Source: an uncultured Clostridia bacterium (GTDB lineage: Bacteria > Bacillota > Clostridia > Christensenellales > UBA1242). Taken from it: a DNA stretch of 64,000 nt. Location of the stretch: positions 46,910-110,909 of the forward strand of contig CAKNIB010000002.1 of NCBI GenBank assembly GCA_930979925.1. Reading direction: 5' to 3'. The position numbers and the translations under genes were made by a program. Below the pieces are notes generated by a model that worked only from the letters and a program-made list of their open reading frames with translations, did no database searches and was not told the DNA's origin. Shown here piece after piece: positions 2,690 to 62,430 of this stretch. Numbering within the stretch: position 1 is the first letter of the stretch; every line of letters starts with the position of its first letter.

Positions 2690-3202
2690 CTAATTTTCCT
2701 TTTCCATCTCTTCGAGTTGAGCGCTGTAGTCTTTTCTTTTGTTTAAAAGTGAAGAACCAACTATGGTAAAAGTTGTCAAGGCACCAAAGGCAAGTAAACT
2801 CATTGCTCCCGCTGTGATTAACCAGTTTTTTGCATTTTCATCATGTGCTTGATAGTTAAAAGTATATGGAGTTGATGTGGATTTTAAAATTTCCTCAGTG
2901 TTTTGATGTGAGGTAATACGATCAAGCTCTTGAGAAAGTAAGGCAGGATCCTGTCCATATTTTTCCATAGCCTCGTTAGTCTGAGCGGAGATTTCTGTTT
3001 GATAGACTTCTAAAGTTTTGAAATCTTCAAGAACATCGTTTCCTTTCTTTATTTCAAACATTGATGCCCCAACGGCTGTGGAAAATCCTGACATCCCAAT
3101 TAAAAATATTATTACAGATGTGATTTCTGCTCTTTTAAAATTTTTGTTTGTTTTGCGAACAGCTTCTCTAGCCTCTGCTACAGTTTCTAGTGATTTTTTC
3201 AT
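2690..3202 (-). CDS. Hypothetical membrane-anchored protein
   Basis: 170-aa ORF with two hydrophobic segments. Abuts the downstream gene. No family recognised. Confidence 0.5.
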   Translation of the reverse strand: MKKSLETVAEAREAVRKTNKNFKRAEITSVIIFLIGMSGFSTAVGASMFEIKKGNDVLEDFKTLEVYQTEISAQTNEAMEKYGQDPALLSQELDRITSHQNTEEILKSTSTPYTFNYQAHDENAKNWLITAGAMSLLAFGALTTFTIVGSSLLNKRKDYSAQLEEMEKEN

Positions 3203-57561: not shown

Positions 57562-58617
57562 ATGAGCATTATTGAACAAGTTAAAAATGAATTATTAAGA
57601 AGAAATCAAGATTATATTGAAAAAGTTGATAGTTATGATTTTTGGAATAATCATATCAAATTTGTAGTTGATGAAGCATTAAAACTTGCAAGTGTCTATG
57701 GTGCTGATAAGGAAATAGTAGAACTTGGAGCATTATTGCACGATATTGCCCTTGTTTCTAATGTTGGAACAAAAGCAGACCACCATACAAATGGAGCAAA
57801 AATTGCTGAGGAAATCCTAACTAACTTAAAATATTCACAAGATAAAAGAGAAAGAGTTGTAAATTGTGTTTTGCACCACAGAAGCTCGAAAAATGCAGAA
57901 AATATAGAAGAATTATGCGTTTGCGATGCCGATATTCTTGCCCACTTTGACAATATTCCAATGATTTTCTTCAAGTCTTTTACTATGGGCAAAATGACTT
58001 TAAATGATATGGGTGTGTTCATTCAAGGCTTTCAAAAAGATTTTGATGATTTAAGTGACAAAACAAAAGAAACTTTTAAAGATAAATACGAAAATATAAT
58101 GCAAGTTCTTTTCGGTGAAAATTGGAGACAACCTATAAGTTTTGAAGAAAGAGATACTAAATCTAATCATATTGAAACTATAATTCACAAAATTGCCGAC
58201 TTGTGCAAAAATGACATTAAATCTTTCCCAGAAATAAAGTGTATGGATTATGTGGATATTTTCCCAAGAAGTGAAGAAGATAGAGTGCTTTTAAATGATG
58301 AAGCAATTAAAATAGGCAACATCATTGAGAAAAACGAAAGAGGAACAACATATCGTTTAAATAAACCAATATCAACTGAACTTGGGAACATTGAATTGTT
58401 GAAAATCCGTAAATTTGATGAAACAAGATTGCCTTGGCTTGGTGCAGGTGATTTTATTGTAAATGATTTTGATAAATTTAAAAACAAATATCAAAATGCA
58501 AAAAATTGCAAATATGTTGAAGCTCCAACTTATAATGCAATTGAAATAAAAACTGATAATACCCTTGCTTATGTTATGGACATACCAACAAGCGAATATT
58601 ATAAAACTAAATCTTAA
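57562..58617 (+). CDS. HD-domain phosphohydrolase with a ~160-aa C-terminal extension
   Basis: H...LHDIA...H...D pattern (GALLHDIALVS, VLHHR, CDADILAHFD). Confidence 0.75.
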   Translation: MSIIEQVKNELLRRNQDYIEKVDSYDFWNNHIKFVVDEALKLASVYGADKEIVELGALLHDIALVSNVGTKADHHTNGAKIAEEILTNLKYSQDKRERVVNCVLHHRSSKNAENIEELCVCDADILAHFDNIPMIFFKSFTMGKMTLNDMGVFIQGFQKDFDDLSDKTKETFKDKYENIMQVLFGENWRQPISFEERDTKSNHIETIIHKIADLCKNDIKSFPEIKCMDYVDIFPRSEEDRVLLNDEAIKIGNIIEKNERGTTYRLNKPISTELGNIELLKIRKFDETRLPWLGAGDFIVNDFDKFKNKYQNAKNCKYVEAPTYNAIEIKTDNTLAYVMDIPTSEYYKTKS

Positions 58618-58691
58618 CAATTTAAAAGCAACCTTTTTGACTTTGAAGATAGACAAAGCTCCACAAAAGAGAAAATTGATTTTGAAAAATA

Positions 58692-58720
58692 TTGACTTTT
58701 TGAGATAATTTGGATATAAT
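58692..58720 (+). promoter_or_regulatory. trpS leader promoter
   Basis: TTGACT, 17 nt, TATAAT. Confidence 0.7.
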
Positions 58721-58748
58721 AAAAATATCTTAATCAAAAGGAGTAAAT

Positions 58749-58784
58749 ATGTTTAGTTCATTTATTTGGTGGCGCAAAAAATAA
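58749..58784 (+). CDS. Trp-codon leader peptide MFSSFIWWRKK
   Basis: AAGGAG SD 6 nt upstream. Tandem TGG TGG at 58767-58772. Lies between the promoter and a terminator upstream of trpS. Confidence 0.65.
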   Translation: MFSSFIWWRKK

Positions 58785-58873
58785 AAGCGTTCGCAAAATG
58801 TTTTGTGAATGCTTGTCTTTGCGTCACAAAACATATAAATGGATTAAATGTTTTCAAATATAATCTTTAAATT

Positions 58874-58917
58874 TCCCGTTGGTATGTTTTGTAGGAAAAC
58901 AATCAACGGGATTTTTA
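58874..58917 (+). terminator. Attenuator terminator upstream of trpS
   Basis: cccgttg...caacggg with an inner gtttt/aaaac helix, followed by ATTTTT. Confidence 0.75.
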
Positions 58918-58942
58918 ATATCAAAAAAAAGGAGATTATATT

Positions 58943-59135
58943 ATGAAAGAAAAAGTAATGCTCACAGGAGTTAGACCAAGCGGAAATATAACTCTTGGAA
59001 ATTATTTAGGAGCAATCAAAAATTTTGTTGATAGACAAGACACATACAAAAGTTATATATTTATTGCGGATTTGCACGCAATCACAAGTCCGCAAAATCC
59101 ACAAAAACTTAAAGAAGCGGTATATAACTGTGTGA
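58943..59135 (+). pseudogene. trpS: Tryptophanyl-tRNA synthetase, N-terminal fragment
   Basis: MKEKVMLTGVRPSGNITLGNYLGAIKNF... Homology to TrpRS ends near residue 62. Confidence 0.8.
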
Positions 59136-59350
59136 CATTAAAAAAGTGTGGGCAGACATATCTCACCGATGTGAAAAATCAAAAAAAGACGCTAGGTATA
59201 CTAGTCCTTCGCTCAATATTTCTTGCTACAGTCAGTTTTATTTTTGGTATCATCTTAAAGGCAATATTTAAATCATGATAAATTAAAAACATAATTTTTG
59301 AAAATATATCGATAATAAATAAAGAAAATGTGGTAAGTTTTGAAATTTAG

Positions 59351-59379
59351 TTGACAAATCCACCCCCCCGTTTTATAAT
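59351..59379 (+). promoter_or_regulatory. Promoter with a C7 homopolymer in its 17-bp spacer
   Basis: TTGACA, aatccaCCCCCCCgttt, then TATAAT. Confidence 0.65.
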
Positions 59380-59409
59380 GGCGGTGAGAGTGAATTTAAG
59401 GAGGTTAAA

Positions 59410-60144
59410 ATGCAAAAAACAAAATCTAGAAAAATTTGGGCGGTGCTCGCTGTTTCTGTTATGCTTGTTGCATTCATGTTTTTAGCAACTGCCTGTGGTG
59501 GTTCAAAGACTGAAAGCGTTTCCACATATCAGGAACTTGTTGACGCCCTTGCTGGAAATTGCGACATCGTTAAACTTGAAAACGACATCGTTGTTGAAGA
59601 TGGCTTGGTTGTTACAAGAGAAGTTGTGCTTGACATGAATGGAAAAACTCTTTCTAACAATGAGGACATTTGGCATGAAGTACAGCCGGGAGAAGAGGGA
59701 GTTAGCACTCTTTCTATCATCGCTGTTGAAGAAGGTGGAGATTTGACCGTTAGAGGCAACGGAACAATTCGCGCGAAAGAAAATGACTGCTACGCGTTTG
59801 ATGTTTCAGGTGGCGGACACCTTGTTATTGAAGACGGCACATATGTTGGAAATATAAGCGTTGTTTATGTTTTAGATGGTTCTGCTGAAATTAAAGGTGG
59901 AAGATACTCTATTCAACAACTCGATAATAAAAAAGACTATCAGTTCACATTAAATTTACAAGGTGAGTGCTATGAAAATGGAACAGGAAGCATTGTTGTG
60001 ACAGGTGGAACTTTTGAGAATTTTGATCCATCAAAAAACGCCGCTGAAAGTGATGACCTTTCCACAAACTTTGTTAAAGAAGGATATATTTCAACTTTAA
60101 CTATGGAAGGTGATTTGATAACATACGTTGTGACAGAGGCGTAA
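59410..60144 (+). CDS. Lipoprotein (cassette inserted in trpS)
   Basis: Lipobox LATAC, SD AAGGAGG, 244 aa. Confidence 0.75.
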   Translation: MQKTKSRKIWAVLAVSVMLVAFMFLATACGGSKTESVSTYQELVDALAGNCDIVKLENDIVVEDGLVVTREVVLDMNGKTLSNNEDIWHEVQPGEEGVSTLSIIAVEEGGDLTVRGNGTIRAKENDCYAFDVSGGGHLVIEDGTYVGNISVVYVLDGSAEIKGGRYSIQQLDNKKDYQFTLNLQGECYENGTGSIVVTGGTFENFDPSKNAAESDDLSTNFVKEGYISTLTMEGDLITYVVTEA

Positions 60145-60168
60145 TTTAACTTTAGTATTTTTAAAAAG

Positions 60169-60201
60169 TTGTATGAGTTGCTCTCCTCATACAATTTTTT
60201 T
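60169..60201 (+). terminator. Intrinsic terminator of the cassette
   Basis: ttgtatgag...ctcatacaa followed by TTTTTTT. Confidence 0.8.
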
Positions 60202-60217
60202 ATTGCTATTAAAACTT

Positions 60218-60832
60218 TTTGTTTATCCACCTCTTATGGTCGCAGATATTTTGCTTTACAACACAAGTATTGTACCGGTCGGAAAAGACCAACAGCAACA
60301 CGTTGAACTTACTCGTGATTTAGCGGAAAGATTTAATAAGCGTTATGGCAAAACTTTTCTTATGCCAGATGTCTATATTGCGCCTATTGGAAACAAGATT
60401 TTAAATTTGCAAAATCCACTTGAAAAAATGAACAAATCCGACAACGGTGACAACAAAGGCACAATCTTTCTTATGGATAATGTTGAAACTGTCAAAAAGA
60501 AGATTATGAGTGCAAAAACAGATAGTTTAGGAACTATTCACTTTGATGAAGAAAATCAACCCGGAATTTCCAATCTTATGAGCATTTTATCCAAAATCAC
60601 AAATGAGAGTTTTGAAAGCATTGAGGCTCGCTATAAAGGAAAAGGATATGGCGAATTTAAAAGGGAAGTTGCGGAAGTTGTTGCAAATTTATTAAATGAA
60701 ATTCAATTAAGATTTAAGAAGTTTAATGATAAAAATTTACTTGATGAAATTCTATCGAGCGGAGCAAAGCAAGCACAAGTTGTGGCGAACGAAACTCTAA
60801 AAAGAGCAACAAAAGCACTTGGATTGAATTAA
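60218..60832 (+). pseudogene. trpS: Tryptophanyl-tRNA synthetase, C-terminal fragment
   Basis: YPPLMVADILLY...VPVGKDQQQHVELTRD...KMNKSD... About 60 residues of the Rossmann/CP1 region are missing between the two fragments. Confidence 0.8.
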
Positions 60833-60858
60833 AAGTTGTAAAAATTTTGTATCAAGTC

Positions 60859-60887
60859 TTGACAACTTTTCAAAATATGATTATAAT
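60859..60887 (+). promoter_or_regulatory. tyrS leader promoter
   Basis: TTGACA, 17 nt, TATAAT. The downstream AAAAATAT.TTA resembles the trpS leader. Confidence 0.7.
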
Positions 60888-60908
60888 AAAAATATATTAG
60901 GAGAAAAT

Positions 60909-60956
60909 ATGAAAAAATTATTTGCAAACAACTCATATTATTACTACTACATTTAG
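60909..60956 (+). CDS. Tyr-codon leader peptide MKKLFANNSYYYYYI
   Basis: AGGAG SD. Five consecutive Tyr codons at 60936-60950. Confidence 0.7.
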   Translation: MKKLFANNSYYYYYI

Positions 60957-61035
60957 ATTGCTATATGTAGGAGTTTTTGTGAGCACAAATAATTAAATAT
61001 TTCAAAAAACATCTGTCATATAGCAAAATCGCTAT

Positions 61036-61090
61036 GTGGCAGTTTTTATTTTAATTCTGCCACGAGTGAAAACTTATGGCAGATTTTTTA
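61036..61090 (+). terminator. Antiterminator/terminator pair upstream of tyrS
   Basis: GTGGCAG (61036-42) pairs with CTGCCAC (61057-63). Alternatively TCTGCCA (61056-62) pairs with TGGCAGA (61077-83), followed by T6. Confidence 0.7.
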
Positions 61091-61105
61091 TTATAAGGAG
61101 TTTTT

Positions 61106-61186
61106 ATGAAAAGATTTATTTTTAGAACATACGCCCATTTGGGCGTGAAAACGATTTTATTTTTTAATAAAAATTTGATAAAATAA
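61106..61186 (+). CDS. Second upstream ORF (26 aa, MKRFIFRTYAHLGVKTILFFNKNLIK)
   Basis: SD AAGGAG. Ends 14 nt before the tyrS ATG. Contains the hairpin acgccc-attt-gggcgt. Confidence 0.3.
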   Translation: MKRFIFRTYAHLGVKTILFFNKNLIK

Positions 61187-61200
61187 AAAAGGAGTTAATT

Positions 61201-62430
61201 ATGAGATTTAAAAATAACGCTTTTGAGCAATTGGAGAATAGAGGATTTGTTTTTCAAACAACGAACTTGGAAGAAACAAAAAGAATTTTAAGTGAAGGTC
61301 CTATAACTTTTTACATCGGCATTGACCCAACAGCCGATGACCTGCACATTGGTCACTTTTTTGGCCTTCAAATGGCAAGAATATTACAAGATTGTGGACA
61401 TAAATGTATTGTGCTTATTGGTGGAGCAACCGCTCTTATTGGCGATCCAAGCAACAAGACAGATATGAGAAAAATGCTAACAAAGGAAGAAGTTGCCCGT
61501 AATGCAAAAGAAATTAAAGGACTTCTTGAAAGGTTTATCGTGCTTGAAGGTGAAAATCCTGCAATTATAGTTGATAATGCCGACTGGCTTAAACCAATAA
61601 CCTACATCGACTTTCTTCGTGGTGTTGGAGTGAATTTTAATGTGAGTGAAATGCTTAAAAAAGACTTATACAAAAATAGATTGAAGCAAGGCGGGTTGAC
61701 CTTTATGGAAATGGGATATATGCTTATGCAAGCCTTTGATTTCATTCATCTTAATGATAAATTTGGCTGTGTCCTGCAAATTGGTGGCTCTGACCAATGG
61801 GGAAACATCGTTGCAGGAACAGAACTTAGCCGAAAAATGAATTTTAAAGATGGAACCGAAAGACCGCTTATGATGGGCTTAACTTGTCCACTTCTCACAA
61901 ATGCTGAAGGGATAAAAATGGGCAAAACTGAAAAAGGCACTTTATGGGTGTCAAGAAGTAAAACATCAGCGTTTGATTTCTTCCAACATTTTGTAAATTG
62001 CCTTGATGCCGATGTTGAAAGATTGCTTCGATTTTTCACGAAGATTGATGTCAAAGAAATTCAGAAGATGTGCAAAGAAGATATTGTGAAAGCCAAAAAA
62101 CTTATGGCTTTTGAAGTGACAAAACTTGTTCATGGTGAAGTTGAAGCTGAAAAAGTGAGAAAGACAAGCGAAGAGCTTTTCTCAAAAGGTAAAGCCGATG
62201 AAAATATGCCAACCGAAGAAATTAAACTTTCTGGCAAGATAAATGTTGTCGATTTCCTTTCGCAACTTTCAATATTTAATTCAAAGTCTGAAATAAGACG
62301 ACTTATTGAGCAAAGCGGAATTATGATTGATGATAAAAAAGTTGAAAATATAAATGAAAACATTGACCTAACAAAGAAAGAAATAATTGTCAAAAAAGGC
62401 AAGAAAACCTTTTTGAAAGTAAAGTTGTAA
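61201..62430 (+). CDS. tyrS: Tyrosyl-tRNA synthetase
   Basis: HIGH motif (DLHIGH), KMGKT (KMSKS-like), and a C-terminal S4-like domain. Confidence 0.95.
   Translation: MRFKNNAFEQLENRGFVFQTTNLEETKRILSEGPITFYIGIDPTADDLHIGHFFGLQMARILQDCGHKCIVLIGGATALIGDPSNKTDMRKMLTKEEVARNAKEIKGLLERFIVLEGENPAIIVDNADWLKPITYIDFLRGVGVNFNVSEMLKKDLYKNRLKQGGLTFMEMGYMLMQAFDFIHLNDKFGCVLQIGGSDQWGNIVAGTELSRKMNFKDGTERPLMMGLTCPLLTNAEGIKMGKTEKGTLWVSRSKTSAFDFFQHFVNCLDADVERLLRFFTKIDVKEIQKMCKEDIVKAKKLMAFEVTKLVHGEVEAEKVRKTSEELFSKGKADENMPTEEIKLSGKINVVDFLSQLSIFNSKSEIRRLIEQSGIMIDDKKVENINENIDLTKKEIIVKKGKKTFLKVKL

What the first reader, a model, noticed from the sequence alone, without database searches (positions are those of the whole stretch)
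60859..61200. Five consecutive Tyr codons in a leader peptide upstream of tyrS, with a readable attenuation relay
A consensus promoter is followed by an AGGAG SD and the ORF MKKLFANNSYYYYYI (TAT TAT TAC TAC TAC at 60936-60950).

Alternative pairings:
- CTACAT in the Tyr codons (60947-52) pairs with ATGTAG (60965-70).
- TTGCTATATG (60958-67, beginning 2 nt after the stop codon) pairs with CATATAGCAA (61017-26), 10 bp.
- CATATAGC (61017-24) can instead pair with GCTATGTG (61031-38), which overlaps the first 3 nt of GTGGCAG.
- GTGGCAG (61036-42) pairs with CTGCCAC (61057-63). This is the antiterminator.
- TCTGCCA (61056-62) pairs with TGGCAGA (61077-83) followed by T6. This is the terminator.

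Model: a ribosome reaching the stop codon masks 60958-67. This favours the anti-antiterminator and therefore termination. A ribosome stalled on the Tyr run leaves 60958-67 free, which gives read-through.

The trpS and tyrS leaders also share promoter-proximal sequence (TATAATAAAAATAT.TTA), suggesting one regulatory family that replaces T-boxes for aaRS genes in this lineage.
Basis: partly seen in the sequence, partly recalled or inferred. Interest (0 to 1): 0.85.

Follow-up and report, generated by a model that had tools for sequence, protein, structure and literature searches.

The report
Tyrosine-codon leader attenuator controlling tyrS
Upstream of the tyrosyl-tRNA synthetase gene of an uncultured gut Clostridia bacterium sits a conserved 15-codon leader with five tyrosine codons and switchable RNA hairpins, most likely a trp-operon-style attenuator where Firmicutes normally use a T-box, followed by an unexplained second mini-ORF that seems to sense the same amino acid.

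Summary
A consensus promoter and AGGAG precede the ORF MKKLFANNSYYYYYI (60909-60956).

A Tyr-rich leader peptide is present in 34 of 35 related tyrS loci that have upstream DNA. Both the terminated and the read-through folds stay paired across 34 leaders, with compensatory changes that link three or four segments at once. Folding with a masked ribosome footprint flips the structure between Tyr codons 4 and 5. No T-box was found here or in about 426 kb of this lineage.

The best explanation is classical ribosome-mediated transcription attenuation (confidence 0.85; no experiment).
- Hairpin B has its own conserved U-tract, so there are two terminators in a relay.
- The whole leader ORF is sequestered in a covarying long stem.
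- A second SD-ATG mini-ORF (61106-61186) places an in-frame Tyr codon at the base of a GC hairpin.
- A second promoter lies just before tyrS.

The family is wider than tyrS. trpS has a conserved Trp-Trp leader, aspS-gatCAB and asnA have Asn runs, and one tyrS-trpS operon has YYWWTY. In each case the mini-ORF codon matches. I rate this a new variant of a known kind.

The parts
60859..60887 (+). Promoter P1: -35 TTGACA (60859-64), 17-nt spacer, -10 TATAAT (60882-87)
   Evidence: 12 of 12 consensus match. A TTGAC-17-TATAAT promoter is visible in most relatives.
60899..60903 (+). Shine-Dalgarno AGGAG of the leader ORF
   Evidence: Sequence. An (A)AGGAG 5-8 nt before the ATG is conserved in relatives.
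60909..60956 (+). Leader ORF MKKLFANNSYYYYYI plus TAG
   Evidence: A Tyr-rich homologue is present in 34 of 35 related loci with upstream DNA, and 25 of those have YYYYY.
60936..60950 (+). Regulatory codons: five consecutive Tyr codons (TAT TAT TAC TAC TAC)
   Evidence: Unique in the six-frame translation of the window, expected 0.014. Masking a ribosome on Tyr1-Tyr4 flips the fold.
60916..60994 (+). Stem 1:2. The leader coding region (60916-60956) pairs with 60961-60994. This is the default fold when the leader is not translated.
   Evidence: MFE. The inner helix is 92% paired across 34 leaders. An outer stem is present in the MFE of 34 of 34 leaders with different sequences: UUAUUUGCA/UGCAAAUAA, AUUUACACA/UGUGUAAA, UUUCGCA/UGCGAAA.
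60958..60967 (+). Segment 2 (TTGCTATATG). It starts 2 nt after the stop codon and is the 5' strand of antiterminator 1.
   Evidence: It pairs with 61017-26, 95% of cells paired over 34 leaders. GCTGTATG/CATACAGC is a compensatory change in L025 and L042.
61013..61026 (+). Segment 3 (CTGTCATATAGCAA). It pairs either with segment 2 or with segment 4.
61031..61052 (+). Segment 4 (GCTATGTGGCAG, 61031-42) plus U-tract TTTTTATTTT (61043-52). With segment 3 it forms hairpin B, terminator 1. Alternatively it pairs with segment 5.
   Evidence: Terminator-like site. The helix is 97.5% paired. A U-tract follows in 33 of 33 leaders.
61056..61063 (+). Segment 5 (TCTGCCAC). It pairs with segment 4 (antiterminator 2) or with segment 6.
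   Evidence: The 4:5 helix is 98.7% paired, with compensatory changes in L011 (GGTAG/CTACC) and L021 (GGCGG/CCGCC).
61077..61089 (+). Segment 6 (TGGCAGA) plus T6. With segment 5 it forms hairpin C, terminator 2.
   Evidence: The helix is 98.7% paired. A U-tract follows in 33 of 33 leaders.
61095..61186 (+). Second module: SD AAGGAG (61095-61100) and uORF2 ATG 61106 to TAA 61186 (MKRFIFRTYAHLGVK...). An in-frame Tyr codon TAC (61130-32) sits at the 5' base of the GC hairpin ACGCCC-ATTT-GGGCGT (61131-46). Function unknown.
   Evidence: Present in 30 relatives by an automated scan. The Tyr codon is always in frame although 6-8 codons precede it. The ORF end is not conserved. The stem covaries CG<->UA and has U:G wobbles on the + strand. 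The codon is Asn in Asn-regulated operons, and Tyr and Trp in the tyrS-trpS operon.
61156..61184 (+). Putative second promoter P2: weak -35 TTTATT 61156-61, TG 61176-77, -10 TAAAAT 61179-84
   Evidence: TTGAAA-17-TGnTAnAAT is conserved at this place in most relatives, read by eye. It was not called by the consensus scan in the window.
61189..62430 (+). tyrS: SD AAGGAG 61189-94, ATG 61201, 409 aa, tyrosyl-tRNA synthetase
   Evidence: PF00579, PF22421; homologues are named tyrosine--tRNA ligase.
58692..58916 (+). Sister element, the trpS leader: promoter 58692-58720, ORF MFSSFIWWRKK 58749-58784 (TGG TGG 58767-72), relay segments W 58786, X 58799, Y 58825 and Z 58883, terminator 58875-58910 plus a U-tract.
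   Evidence: The WW leader is conserved in 9 of 9 relatives. Masked folding at the decision point gives P(Y:Z) 0.01 with no ribosome, 0.98 with a Trp stall and 0.13 at the stop codon.

Best explanation
This is a classical ribosome-mediated (leader-peptide) transcription attenuator that couples tyrS transcription to the supply of charged tRNA-Tyr.

Transcription starts at P1, near 60894. The short leader ORF is translated while RNA polymerase moves on. What happens next depends on where the ribosome is.

1. Tyr-tRNA plentiful. The ribosome runs to the TAG at 60954-56, and its footprint covers segment 2 (60958-67). Segment 3 therefore pairs with segment 4 (hairpin B plus U-tract, terminator 1). 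If polymerase escapes that, segment 5 pairs with segment 6 (hairpin C plus T6, terminator 2).
2. Leader not translated. Segment 2 is held in the long 1:2 stem. The outcome is the same as in case 1.
3. Tyr-tRNA scarce. The ribosome stalls on one of the first four Tyr codons. This opens 1:2 but leaves segment 2 free, so 2:3 forms. Segment 4 is released and pairs with segment 5. Neither terminator forms, and polymerase reads into tyrS.

Shown here: the anatomy, its conservation, the covariation, and the thermodynamic switch.

Inferred: that ribosome position decides the outcome in vivo, and that both U-tracts terminate.

Downstream, a second small ORF with one in-frame Tyr codon abutting a GC hairpin probably adds a second Tyr-dependent step. 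Its mechanism is unknown. A proximal promoter, P2, probably supplies basal tyrS expression.
For: Anatomy and chance:
- Anatomy is read.
- The Tyr5 run is unique in the window, expected 0.014.

Conservation:
- 34 of 35 related tyrS loci with upstream DNA carry a Tyr-rich leader. TyrS identity across these is 73-95%, and each locus is one genome per species.
- A more distant genome (L127) also has one.

Structure across 34 leaders:
- Read-through fold (2:3 plus 4:5): 96.5% of cells paired, 5 pairs with changes on both sides. Slid controls give 22-52%.
- Terminated fold: helices are 92%, 97.5% and 98.7% paired.
- The outer 1:2 stem appears in 34 of 34 leaders with different sequences.

Linked compensatory changes across partners:
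- L025 and L042: segment 2 GCTGTATG, segment 3 CATACAGC, segment 4 GTTGTGTG.
- L011: CTACC / GGTAG / CTACC / GGTGG.
- L021: CCG.. / ..CGG / CCGCC / GGTGG.

Terminators: U-tracts follow both hairpins in 33 of 33 leaders.

Masked folding of the window:
- A-site on Tyr1-Tyr4: P(2:3) 0.63-0.95, P(4:5) 0.58-0.95, P(5:6) 0.04-0.40.
- A-site on Tyr5, Ile or stop, or no ribosome: P(3:4) >=0.95 and P(5:6) >=0.92.
- Means over 33 leaders move the same way.

Amino-acid specificity across the family:
- In L034, where trpS follows tyrS in one operon, the leader is MTTILTSNLYYWWTY.
- trpS leaders have WW in 9 of 9 relatives.
- aspS(ND)-gatCAB and asnA leaders have runs of 6-8 Asn codons.

No T-box anywhere.
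Against: - There is no experimental evidence. All organisms are uncultured MAGs.
- Sequence variation in the core segments is low, so the number of independent compensatory events is small. The shuffle control overstates significance for related sequences.
- Masked folding at equilibrium gives a clear switch in the window but only a partial one in several relatives. L007, L011, L014 and L044 stay terminator-prone, so kinetic (co-transcriptional) control has to be assumed.
- One relative (L003) lacks the attenuator altogether.
- With a 15-nt rather than a 12-nt downstream footprint, only Tyr1-Tyr3 stalls give read-through.
Confidence: 0.85

Rival explanations
1. Same leader-peptide attenuator, but wired. 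Hairpin B is only an anti-antiterminator that frees segment 5, and termination happens only at hairpin C.
For: The relay logic (2:3, 3:4, 4:5, 5:6) is identical, and 4:5 complementarity is conserved. Hairpin B contains two G:U pairs, and its U-tract is interrupted (TTTTTATTTT).
Against: Hairpin B is a 12-bp stem directly followed by at least 6 T in 8 nt in 33 of 33 leaders. That is not needed for a mere anti-antiterminator. The Asn leader of L034 shows the same two hairpins, each with a U-tract.
Confidence: 0.25
2. A protein-mediated or otherwise ribosome-independent attenuator. An RNA-binding protein, for example TyrRS itself, chooses between the alternative hairpins, and the short ORF is incidental.
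For: The alternative hairpins alone do not say what sets the switch. Segments 2-6 are very conserved in sequence, as a protein site might be.
Against: - SD, ATG, reading frame and the Tyr run are conserved while other leader codons vary.
- The stop codon lies 0-7 nt before segment 2 in all leaders.
- The run changes to Tyr+Trp, Trp or Asn exactly with the regulated gene.
- The high sequence conservation is expected for segments that must each pair with two partners.
Confidence: 0.05
3. A divergent T-box or other tRNA-binding riboswitch that uses the UAC codons as specifier.
For: tyrS is the archetypal T-box gene in Firmicutes (own knowledge; cited in PMC1262725). Segment 4 contains UGGC.
Against: - No match to RF00230 at gathering score, or at E<=10 with relaxed filters, nor in 58 related loci.
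- At about 190 nt, the leader has no Stem I-like long helix.
- The conserved SD-ATG and reading frame indicate translation.
Confidence: 0.02
4. The ORF encodes a functional small peptide, for example a toxin or a membrane peptide, and the hairpins are ordinary terminators of that small gene.
For: The N-terminus MKxLFA is fairly conserved.
Against: - Synonymous positions of the Tyr run are almost invariant, and the N-terminal codons covary with a downstream strand. This points to an RNA-level constraint.
- Alternative pairings that abolish both terminators are conserved.
- The element always sits directly upstream of tyrS.
Confidence: 0.02

Closest known systems
E. coli trp operon attenuator (trpL leader peptide)
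   Same: - A short translated leader carries consecutive cognate codons close to its stop codon.
- Stall versus completion selects between antiterminator and intrinsic terminator.
- An untranslated leader defaults to termination through a 1:2 stem.
- The window's trpS leader even ends ...WWR, like TrpL (own knowledge for the E. coli details).
   Different: - It regulates an aminoacyl-tRNA synthetase, not a biosynthetic operon.
- It uses Tyr codons.
- It has six segments with two U-tract hairpins in a relay, instead of four segments with one terminator.
- There is no sequence or Rfam homology. No Trp, His, Leu, Thr or Phe leader family hit was found.
- A second uORF-hairpin module follows.
Leader-peptide attenuators of aaRS genes: E. 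coli pheST (pheM), Streptomyces trpS and leuS
   Same: An aaRS gene is controlled by a leader peptide rich in the cognate codon plus terminator and antiterminator (PMC1262725).
   Different: - Different phyla (Proteobacteria, Actinobacteria) and different amino acids.
[quoted passage not shown]
- No tyrS or Tyr case was found in 8 full-text searches.
His leader peptide upstream of hisS paralogues (hisZ, hisS*) in the Bacillus cereus group; His leaders of his operons in some Firmicutes; Leu-rich leader of S. aureus ilv-leu
   Same: These are 'regular' leader peptides in Firmicutes that take the place of T-boxes (PMC2965389, PMC9413887, PMC5794164).
   Different: - Other amino acids and other genes.
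- None concerns tyrS, trpS or aspS-gatCAB.
- None is described with tandem terminators or with a second codon-matched uORF.
T-box riboswitch of B. subtilis tyrS, and of the aspS2-gatCAB-type operon in Clostridium acetobutylicum
   Same: It has the same physiological logic, sensing the charging of the cognate tRNA. It has the same output, read-through of a leader terminator. It controls the same genes. (The C. acetobutylicum case is from my own knowledge and was not checked here.)
   Different: The sensor is a translating ribosome on a codon run, not direct binding of uncharged tRNA. The T-box model does not match.
Translational attenuation leaders of cat, cmlA and erm genes (ribosome stalled just 5' of a hairpin)
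   Same: The uORF2 module places a defined stall codon directly at the 5' base of a hairpin, as in those drug-inducible leaders. ermB is reported to use two leader peptides (PMC8274638).
   Different: Here the hairpin does not contain the SD of the downstream gene. tyrS's SD is about 45 nt further on, and no consistent SD sequestration is predicted. The stall signal would be amino-acid supply, not an antibiotic.

Membership tests
Classical leader-peptide (ribosome-mediated) transcription attenuator | Short ORF with its own SD and start codon in the 5' leader of the regulated gene | tested here: met
   AGGAG 60899-903 and ATG 60909, 15 codons. SD plus ATG are conserved in relatives.
Classical leader-peptide (ribosome-mediated) transcription attenuator | Cluster of codons for the amino acid cognate to the regulated gene | tested here: met
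   Five Tyr codons before tyrS. This is conserved in 34 of 35 loci. The run switches to WW, YYWW or N6-8 with trpS, tyrS-trpS or asn genes.
Classical leader-peptide (ribosome-mediated) transcription attenuator | Intrinsic terminator (GC-containing hairpin plus U-tract) between the leader ORF and the structural gene | tested here: met
   There are two: 61013-42 plus U-tract and 61056-83 plus T6. Both have U-tracts in 33 of 33 leaders.
Classical leader-peptide (ribosome-mediated) transcription attenuator | Mutually exclusive antiterminator pairing, supported by conservation or covariation | tested here: met
   2:3 and 4:5 are 96.5% paired, with 5 pairs changed on both sides. Slid controls give 22-52%.
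Classical leader-peptide (ribosome-mediated) transcription attenuator | Geometry: a ribosome at the regulatory codons frees the antiterminator strand, and a ribosome at the stop codon masks it | tested here: met
   Segment 2 starts 0-7 nt after the stop codon in all leaders. Masked folding switches between Tyr4 and Tyr5. The 33-leader means move in the same direction.
Classical leader-peptide (ribosome-mediated) transcription attenuator | Read-through depends on leader translation and on charged-tRNA level | not testable with these tools
   This needs reporter assays, in vitro transcription-translation assays, or Term-seq under Tyr limitation.
T-box riboswitch (RF00230) | Match to the covariance model (Stem I with specifier loop, conserved T-box sequence in the antiterminator bulge) | tested here: not met
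   No hit at gathering score in the window. None at E<=10 in 58500-61500. None in 58 related loci.
Curated Rfam amino-acid leader families (Trp, His, Leu, Thr, Phe leaders) | Sequence and structure homology to one of the models | tested here: not met
   No such family appears among hits up to E=10. It works like these leaders but is not a homologous member.

The most novel reading that the evidence does not exclude
In this uncultured Christensenellales-related lineage, T-boxes on aaRS and asparagine-pathway operons have been replaced by a modular, two-tier, ribosome-based sensor.

- Tier 1 is a cognate-codon run that drives a two-terminator relay.
- Tier 2 is a second mini-ORF in which a single in-frame 'specifier' codon abuts a GCCC-loop-GGGC hairpin. 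That codon is Tyr, Asn, Trp and possibly Asp.

The specifier codon is swapped to match the regulated gene, much as T-box specifier codons are. Two hairpins with two codons occur where two aaRS genes share one operon. Tier 2 would be a previously undescribed stall-dependent control step, acting on mRNA stability, processing, or factor-dependent termination.
Probability: 0.4. Interest if true: 0.8.

Novelty: new variant of a known kind. Interest (0 to 1): 0.68.

Why it matters
tyrS is the founding example of T-box control, and the literature held here states that Firmicutes aaRS genes are regulated by T-boxes and not by classical attenuation (PMC1262725). The only reported exception concerns hisS paralogues in bacilli (PMC2965389).

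This element shows that a whole clade of gut Clostridia uses ribosome stalling instead, for at least tyrS, trpS and aspS-gatCAB. One natural hybrid carries Tyr and Trp codons before a tyrS-trpS operon, which amounts to a specificity-swap experiment done by evolution.

It adds an amino acid (Tyr), and a pathway (the indirect Asn-tRNA route), to the list of leader-peptide attenuators. It gives a compact two-terminator relay design. It also exposes a second codon-matched uORF-hairpin module whose mechanism is not explained by current models.

Practically, these short ORFs should not be annotated as hypothetical proteins. The absence of T-boxes should not be read as absence of aaRS regulation.

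Tried and rejected
1. T-box or any Rfam family: nothing found.

2. Outer 1:2 stem on the MAFFT alignment: only 55-71% of cells paired because of indels. I replaced this with per-sequence folding.

3. Equilibrium masked folding of the full-length trpS leader: the terminator wins in every state. This was uninformative. Folding at the decision point, with RNA polymerase just past segment Z, was informative.

4. uORF2 hairpin as a sequester of the tyrS SD or start: no consistent pairing in 17 leaders. The hairpin is the only recurrent structure.

5. uORF2 hairpin as an intrinsic terminator: no U-tract directly after it in most relatives.

6. uORF2 hairpin as a DNA operator: U:G wobbles on the + strand argue for an RNA-level structure.

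7. uORF2 as a frameshift site or a fusion to tyrS: the tyrS frame is closed by TAA at 61168-70, and a slippery heptamer is not general (read).

8. Scan of all 128 loci plus the window for further codon-run leaders followed by terminators: only Tyr, Trp and Asn cases were convincing.

9. Other aaRS genes in the window: none among the ten largest remaining ORFs scanned against Pfam.

10. The large-scale attenuator survey by Lopatovskaya et al. 2010 (PubMed 20198868) is not held. I could not check whether it lists tyrS.

11. The shared 18-mer at the two promoters: real, but it is the -10 box plus the start region. It is only partly conserved in relatives, so I do not count it as part of the RNA mechanism.
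Full report
**What is there**

The window comes from an uncultured, low-GC (35.7%) member of the Bacillota. Its TyrS is 95% identical to that of 'Candidatus Caccosoma faecigallinarum' and 73-82% identical to MAGs labelled Ca. Onthoplasma, Christensenellales or Clostridia.

- -35 TTGACA 60859-64, 17-nt spacer, -10 TATAAT 60882-87.
- AGGAG 60899-903.
- ATG 60909, then MKKLFANNSYYYYYI, with TAT TAT TAC TAC TAC at 60936-50 and TAG at 60954-56.

All five listed pairings are at the stated coordinates. A run of five Tyr occurs once in the six-frame translation of the 64 kb, against about 0.014 expected. The leader folds far better than shuffled sequence, z = -5.65.

**Anatomy**

The minimum-energy fold has three hairpins.
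- Stem 1:2. The leader coding region (60916-56) pairs with 60961-94 in a long stem.
- Hairpin B (61013-24 with 61031-42, 12 bp), followed by TTTTTATTTT.
- Hairpin C (61056-62 with 61077-83, plus an inner stem), followed by T6.

The terminator scan calls hairpin B as a terminator-like site. It did not list hairpin C, which has an internal mismatch. C's terminator status rests on its conserved stem and its U-tract.

The alternative fold uses segment 2 (60958-67) with segment 3 (61017-26), and segment 4 (61036-42) with segment 5 (61057-63). That fold removes both hairpins. Its U-tract makes it a probable first terminator.

**Is it a T-box?**

No. Rfam finds only a tRNA in the window at gathering score. 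Relaxed filters on 58500-61500 find nothing resembling a T-box or a curated amino-acid leader at E<=10. None was found in 58 related loci, about 362 kb.

**Comparative test**

One scan of the species-representative genome collection with TyrS returned 45 loci.
- 39 of them have 73-95% TyrS identity, and 35 of those hold enough upstream DNA to judge.
- 34 of the 35 have a Tyr-rich leader ORF of the form MKxLFAxxSYYYYY[I/K].
- 25 of those have YYYYY. The rest have one position changed (YYYCY, YYCYY, YYGYY, YHYYY), and there is one shortened variant.
- The exception, L003, has a different upstream gene and has lost the attenuator.
- A more distant genome (L127) also has MNVLSSVFAYYYYCI with the same segments.
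- Loci with 46-55% TyrS identity have neither a leader nor a T-box.

**Structure conservation**

These counts are on a MAFFT alignment of 34 leaders.
- The read-through fold (2:3 plus 4:5) is paired in 96.5% of cells, with five pairs changed on both sides. With the partners slid by 1-3 columns, only 22-52% of cells pair.
- In the terminated fold, the Tyr-codon/segment-2 helix is 92% paired, hairpin B 97.5% and hairpin C 98.7%.
- The outer 1:2 stem is badly aligned by MAFFT. It is nonetheless present in the MFE of all 34 leaders, with different sequences: UUAUUUGCA/UGCAAAUAA, AUUUACACA/UGUGUAAA, UUUCGCA/UGCGAAA, ACAAGCAA/UUGCUUGU.

The changes that run through several partners at once are the most telling.
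- L025 and L042 have GCTGTATG in segment 2, CATACAGC in segment 3 and GTTGTGTG in segment 4.
- L011 has CTACC / GGTAG / CTACC / GGTGG in segments 3 to 6.
- L021 has CCG.. / ..CGG / CCGCC / GGTGG.

The otherwise strong sequence conservation of segments 2-6 is what one expects of strands that must each fit two partners. Both hairpins carry a U-tract (at least 6 T in the first 8-9 nt) in 33 of 33 leaders.

**Masked-ribosome folding**

I forced everything up to 12 nt past the first base of the A-site codon to be unpaired, and computed pairing probabilities for the window.

| Ribosome position | P(2:3) | P(4:5) | P(3:4) | P(5:6) |
|---|---|---|---|---|
| A-site on Tyr1-Tyr4 | 0.63-0.95 | 0.58-0.95 | n/a | 0.04-0.40 |
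| A-site on Tyr5, Ile or stop, or no ribosome | n/a | n/a | >=0.95 | >=0.92 |

With a 15-nt footprint the boundary moves by one codon.

Over 33 leaders the mean P(2:3) rises from 0.06 to 0.56 and the mean P(4:5) from 0.15 to 0.50 on a Tyr stall. Both stay low at the stop codon. Several relatives switch only partly at equilibrium, so co-transcriptional kinetics must contribute. In all leaders segment 2 begins 0-7 nt after the stop codon, inside the footprint of a terminating ribosome.

**Specificity shown by relatives**

- L034. Here trpS lies 21 nt downstream of tyrS, and the leader peptide is MTTILTSNLYYWWTY, with Tyr and Trp codons together.
- trpS. The window's own trpS has a separate leader, MFSSFIWWRKK (58749-84). 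Its relay is W 58786, X 58799, Y 58825, Z 58883 and terminator 58875-58910. The WW peptide and these segments are conserved in 9 of 9 related trpS loci from metagenomes. At the decision point the antiterminator Y:Z has probability 0.01 without a ribosome, 0.98 with a Trp stall and 0.13 with a ribosome at the stop codon.
- Asn. A scan for codon-run leaders followed by terminators also found runs of 6-8 Asn codons. One precedes an asnA operon (L034). The others precede aspS(non-discriminating)-gatCAB operons (L019, L126, L128). Protein identities are from NCBIfam and Pfam.
- L034 Asn leader. It shows the same design: two U-tract hairpins, with the 3' arm of the first complementary to the 5' arm of the second.

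I could not reach the other aaRS genes.

**Mechanism**

The best explanation is classical ribosome-mediated transcription attenuation, with two terminators in a relay, at confidence 0.85. The steps are set out in the Best explanation section. What is shown is anatomy, conservation, covariation, thermodynamic switching and amino-acid-matched codon runs. What is inferred is that ribosome position decides the fold in vivo and that both U-tract hairpins terminate.

Rivals are made unlikely by the conserved SD, ATG, frame and run, and by the gene-matched change of codons. The rivals considered were a protein-set switch, a cryptic tRNA-binding RNA and a functional small peptide.

**A second module, not part of the original finding**

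Directly after terminator 2 there is a strong SD (61095-61100) and a second small ORF (61106-61186). Its only conserved coding feature is an in-frame Tyr codon (TAC 61130-32). The last two bases of that codon open a GC-rich hairpin, ACGCCC-ATTT-GGGCGT (61131-46).
- The module is present in 30 relatives by an automated scan. The number of codons before the Tyr varies from 6 to 8, yet the Tyr is always in frame.
- The ORF end is not conserved. In three leaders the stop codon lies in the hairpin loop.
- The stem covaries (CG<->UA) and shows U:G wobbles on the + strand.
- In the Asn-regulated leaders, the equivalent ORF has AAT or AAC at that position (L019, L034, L126, L127, L128).
- In the tyrS-trpS leader of L034, one ORF carries TAT before one hairpin and, in frame, TGG before a second hairpin.
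- L127 has a second hairpin preceded by AAC-GAT.
- The trpS leaders lack the module.

The codon at the hairpin base thus follows the regulated amino acid. A ribosome stalled there would hold the hairpin open. What the closed hairpin does is unknown. It has no adjacent U-tract and does not sequester the tyrS ribosome-binding site.

Downstream, most relatives have a conserved TTGAAA-17-TGnTAnAAT promoter-like element (window 61156-84) a few bases before the tyrS SD. It would give basal expression of this essential gene.

**Comparison with what is known**

- Leader-peptide attenuation of aaRS genes is documented or predicted for E. coli pheST and for Streptomyces trpS and leuS. [quoted passage not shown] - His and Leu leaders before biosynthetic operons are known in Firmicutes (PMC9413887, PMC5794164).
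- Eight full-text searches found no Tyr leader, no tyrS attenuator and no Asn leader for aspS-gatCAB.
- One relevant survey could not be read.

The element works like the trp and pheST attenuators. It is not homologous to any curated leader family.

**Verdict**

As a leader-peptide attenuator it belongs to a known kind. Four things make it a new variant:
- the amino acid and gene it controls;
- the phylum in which it occurs;
- the two-terminator relay;
- above all, the codon-matched second uORF-hairpin module.

Interest is 0.68.

Noticed in passing
window 61095-61186 (SD, uORF2, Tyr codon 61130-32, hairpin 61131-46): A second conserved mini-ORF follows the attenuator. Its in-frame Tyr codon opens a GC hairpin. 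The equivalent codon is Asn in Asn-regulated leaders, and Tyr plus Trp (two hairpins) in a tyrS-trpS leader. Function unknown: it is not a terminator and does not sequester the SD.
   Followed up: partly
window 61156-61184: A putative second promoter (TTGAAA-17-TGnTAnAAT in relatives; a weaker -35 in the window) lies just upstream of the tyrS SD and downstream of the attenuator. It probably gives basal expression.
   Followed up: partly
window 58692-58916: The trpS leader is a consensus-like promoter, the ORF MFSSFIWWRKK with two Trp codons, a multi-segment relay and a strong terminator. It is conserved in 9 of 9 related trpS loci, and the masked fold at the decision point behaves as an attenuator.
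   Followed up: yes
window 59135-60213: trpS is interrupted. About 180 nt (roughly codons 65-125) are replaced by about 1.08 kb. The insert carries its own consensus promoter (59351-79), a 244-aa lipoprotein-like ORF (59410-60144; no Pfam or NCBIfam hit) and a terminator (60163-60200). Near-identical contigs have intact trpS (L046, L047). Another (L048) has the same replacement, so this is a strain polymorphism that should inactivate this trpS copy.
   Followed up: partly
L034 2664-5310: A tyrS-trpS operon has the hybrid leader peptide MTTILTSNLYYWWTY. Its uORF2 (2874-2969) carries TAT plus a hairpin and TGG plus a hairpin, both in frame.
   Followed up: yes
L034 462-800; L019 2904-3334; L126 9714-10001; L127 40-254; L128 9591-10001: Asn-run leader peptides (6-8 Asn codons) with terminators and an Asn-codon uORF2-hairpin lie upstream of asnA and of aspS(non-discriminating)-gatCAB operons in the same lineage. 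L127 has a second hairpin preceded by AAC-GAT (Asn-Asp).
   Followed up: partly
window 58715-58732 and 60882-60899: The 18-mer TATAATAAAAATATNTTA (-10 box plus the first transcribed bases) occurs only at the trpS and tyrS leader promoters in the window, against 0.02 expected. A similar string precedes the Asn leader in L034. It may be a lineage-typical strong promoter and start region rather than part of the switch.
   Followed up: partly
L037 6963-7224: An OLE (ornate large extremophilic) RNA match, 132.8 bits and cut by the locus end, lies about 2.7 kb downstream of tyrS in a Ca. Onthoplasma MAG.
   Followed up: no
L002 1817-2047 and L005 ~2781-3017: In two close relatives an extra ORF of about 76-78 aa (MKKNVEITL...), with its own promoter-like element, is inserted between uORF2 and tyrS.
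   Followed up: no
L003 2840-3001: One close relative (90% TyrS identity) has lost the Tyr leader and both terminators. It keeps the GC hairpin and the proximal promoter before tyrS.
   Followed up: partly
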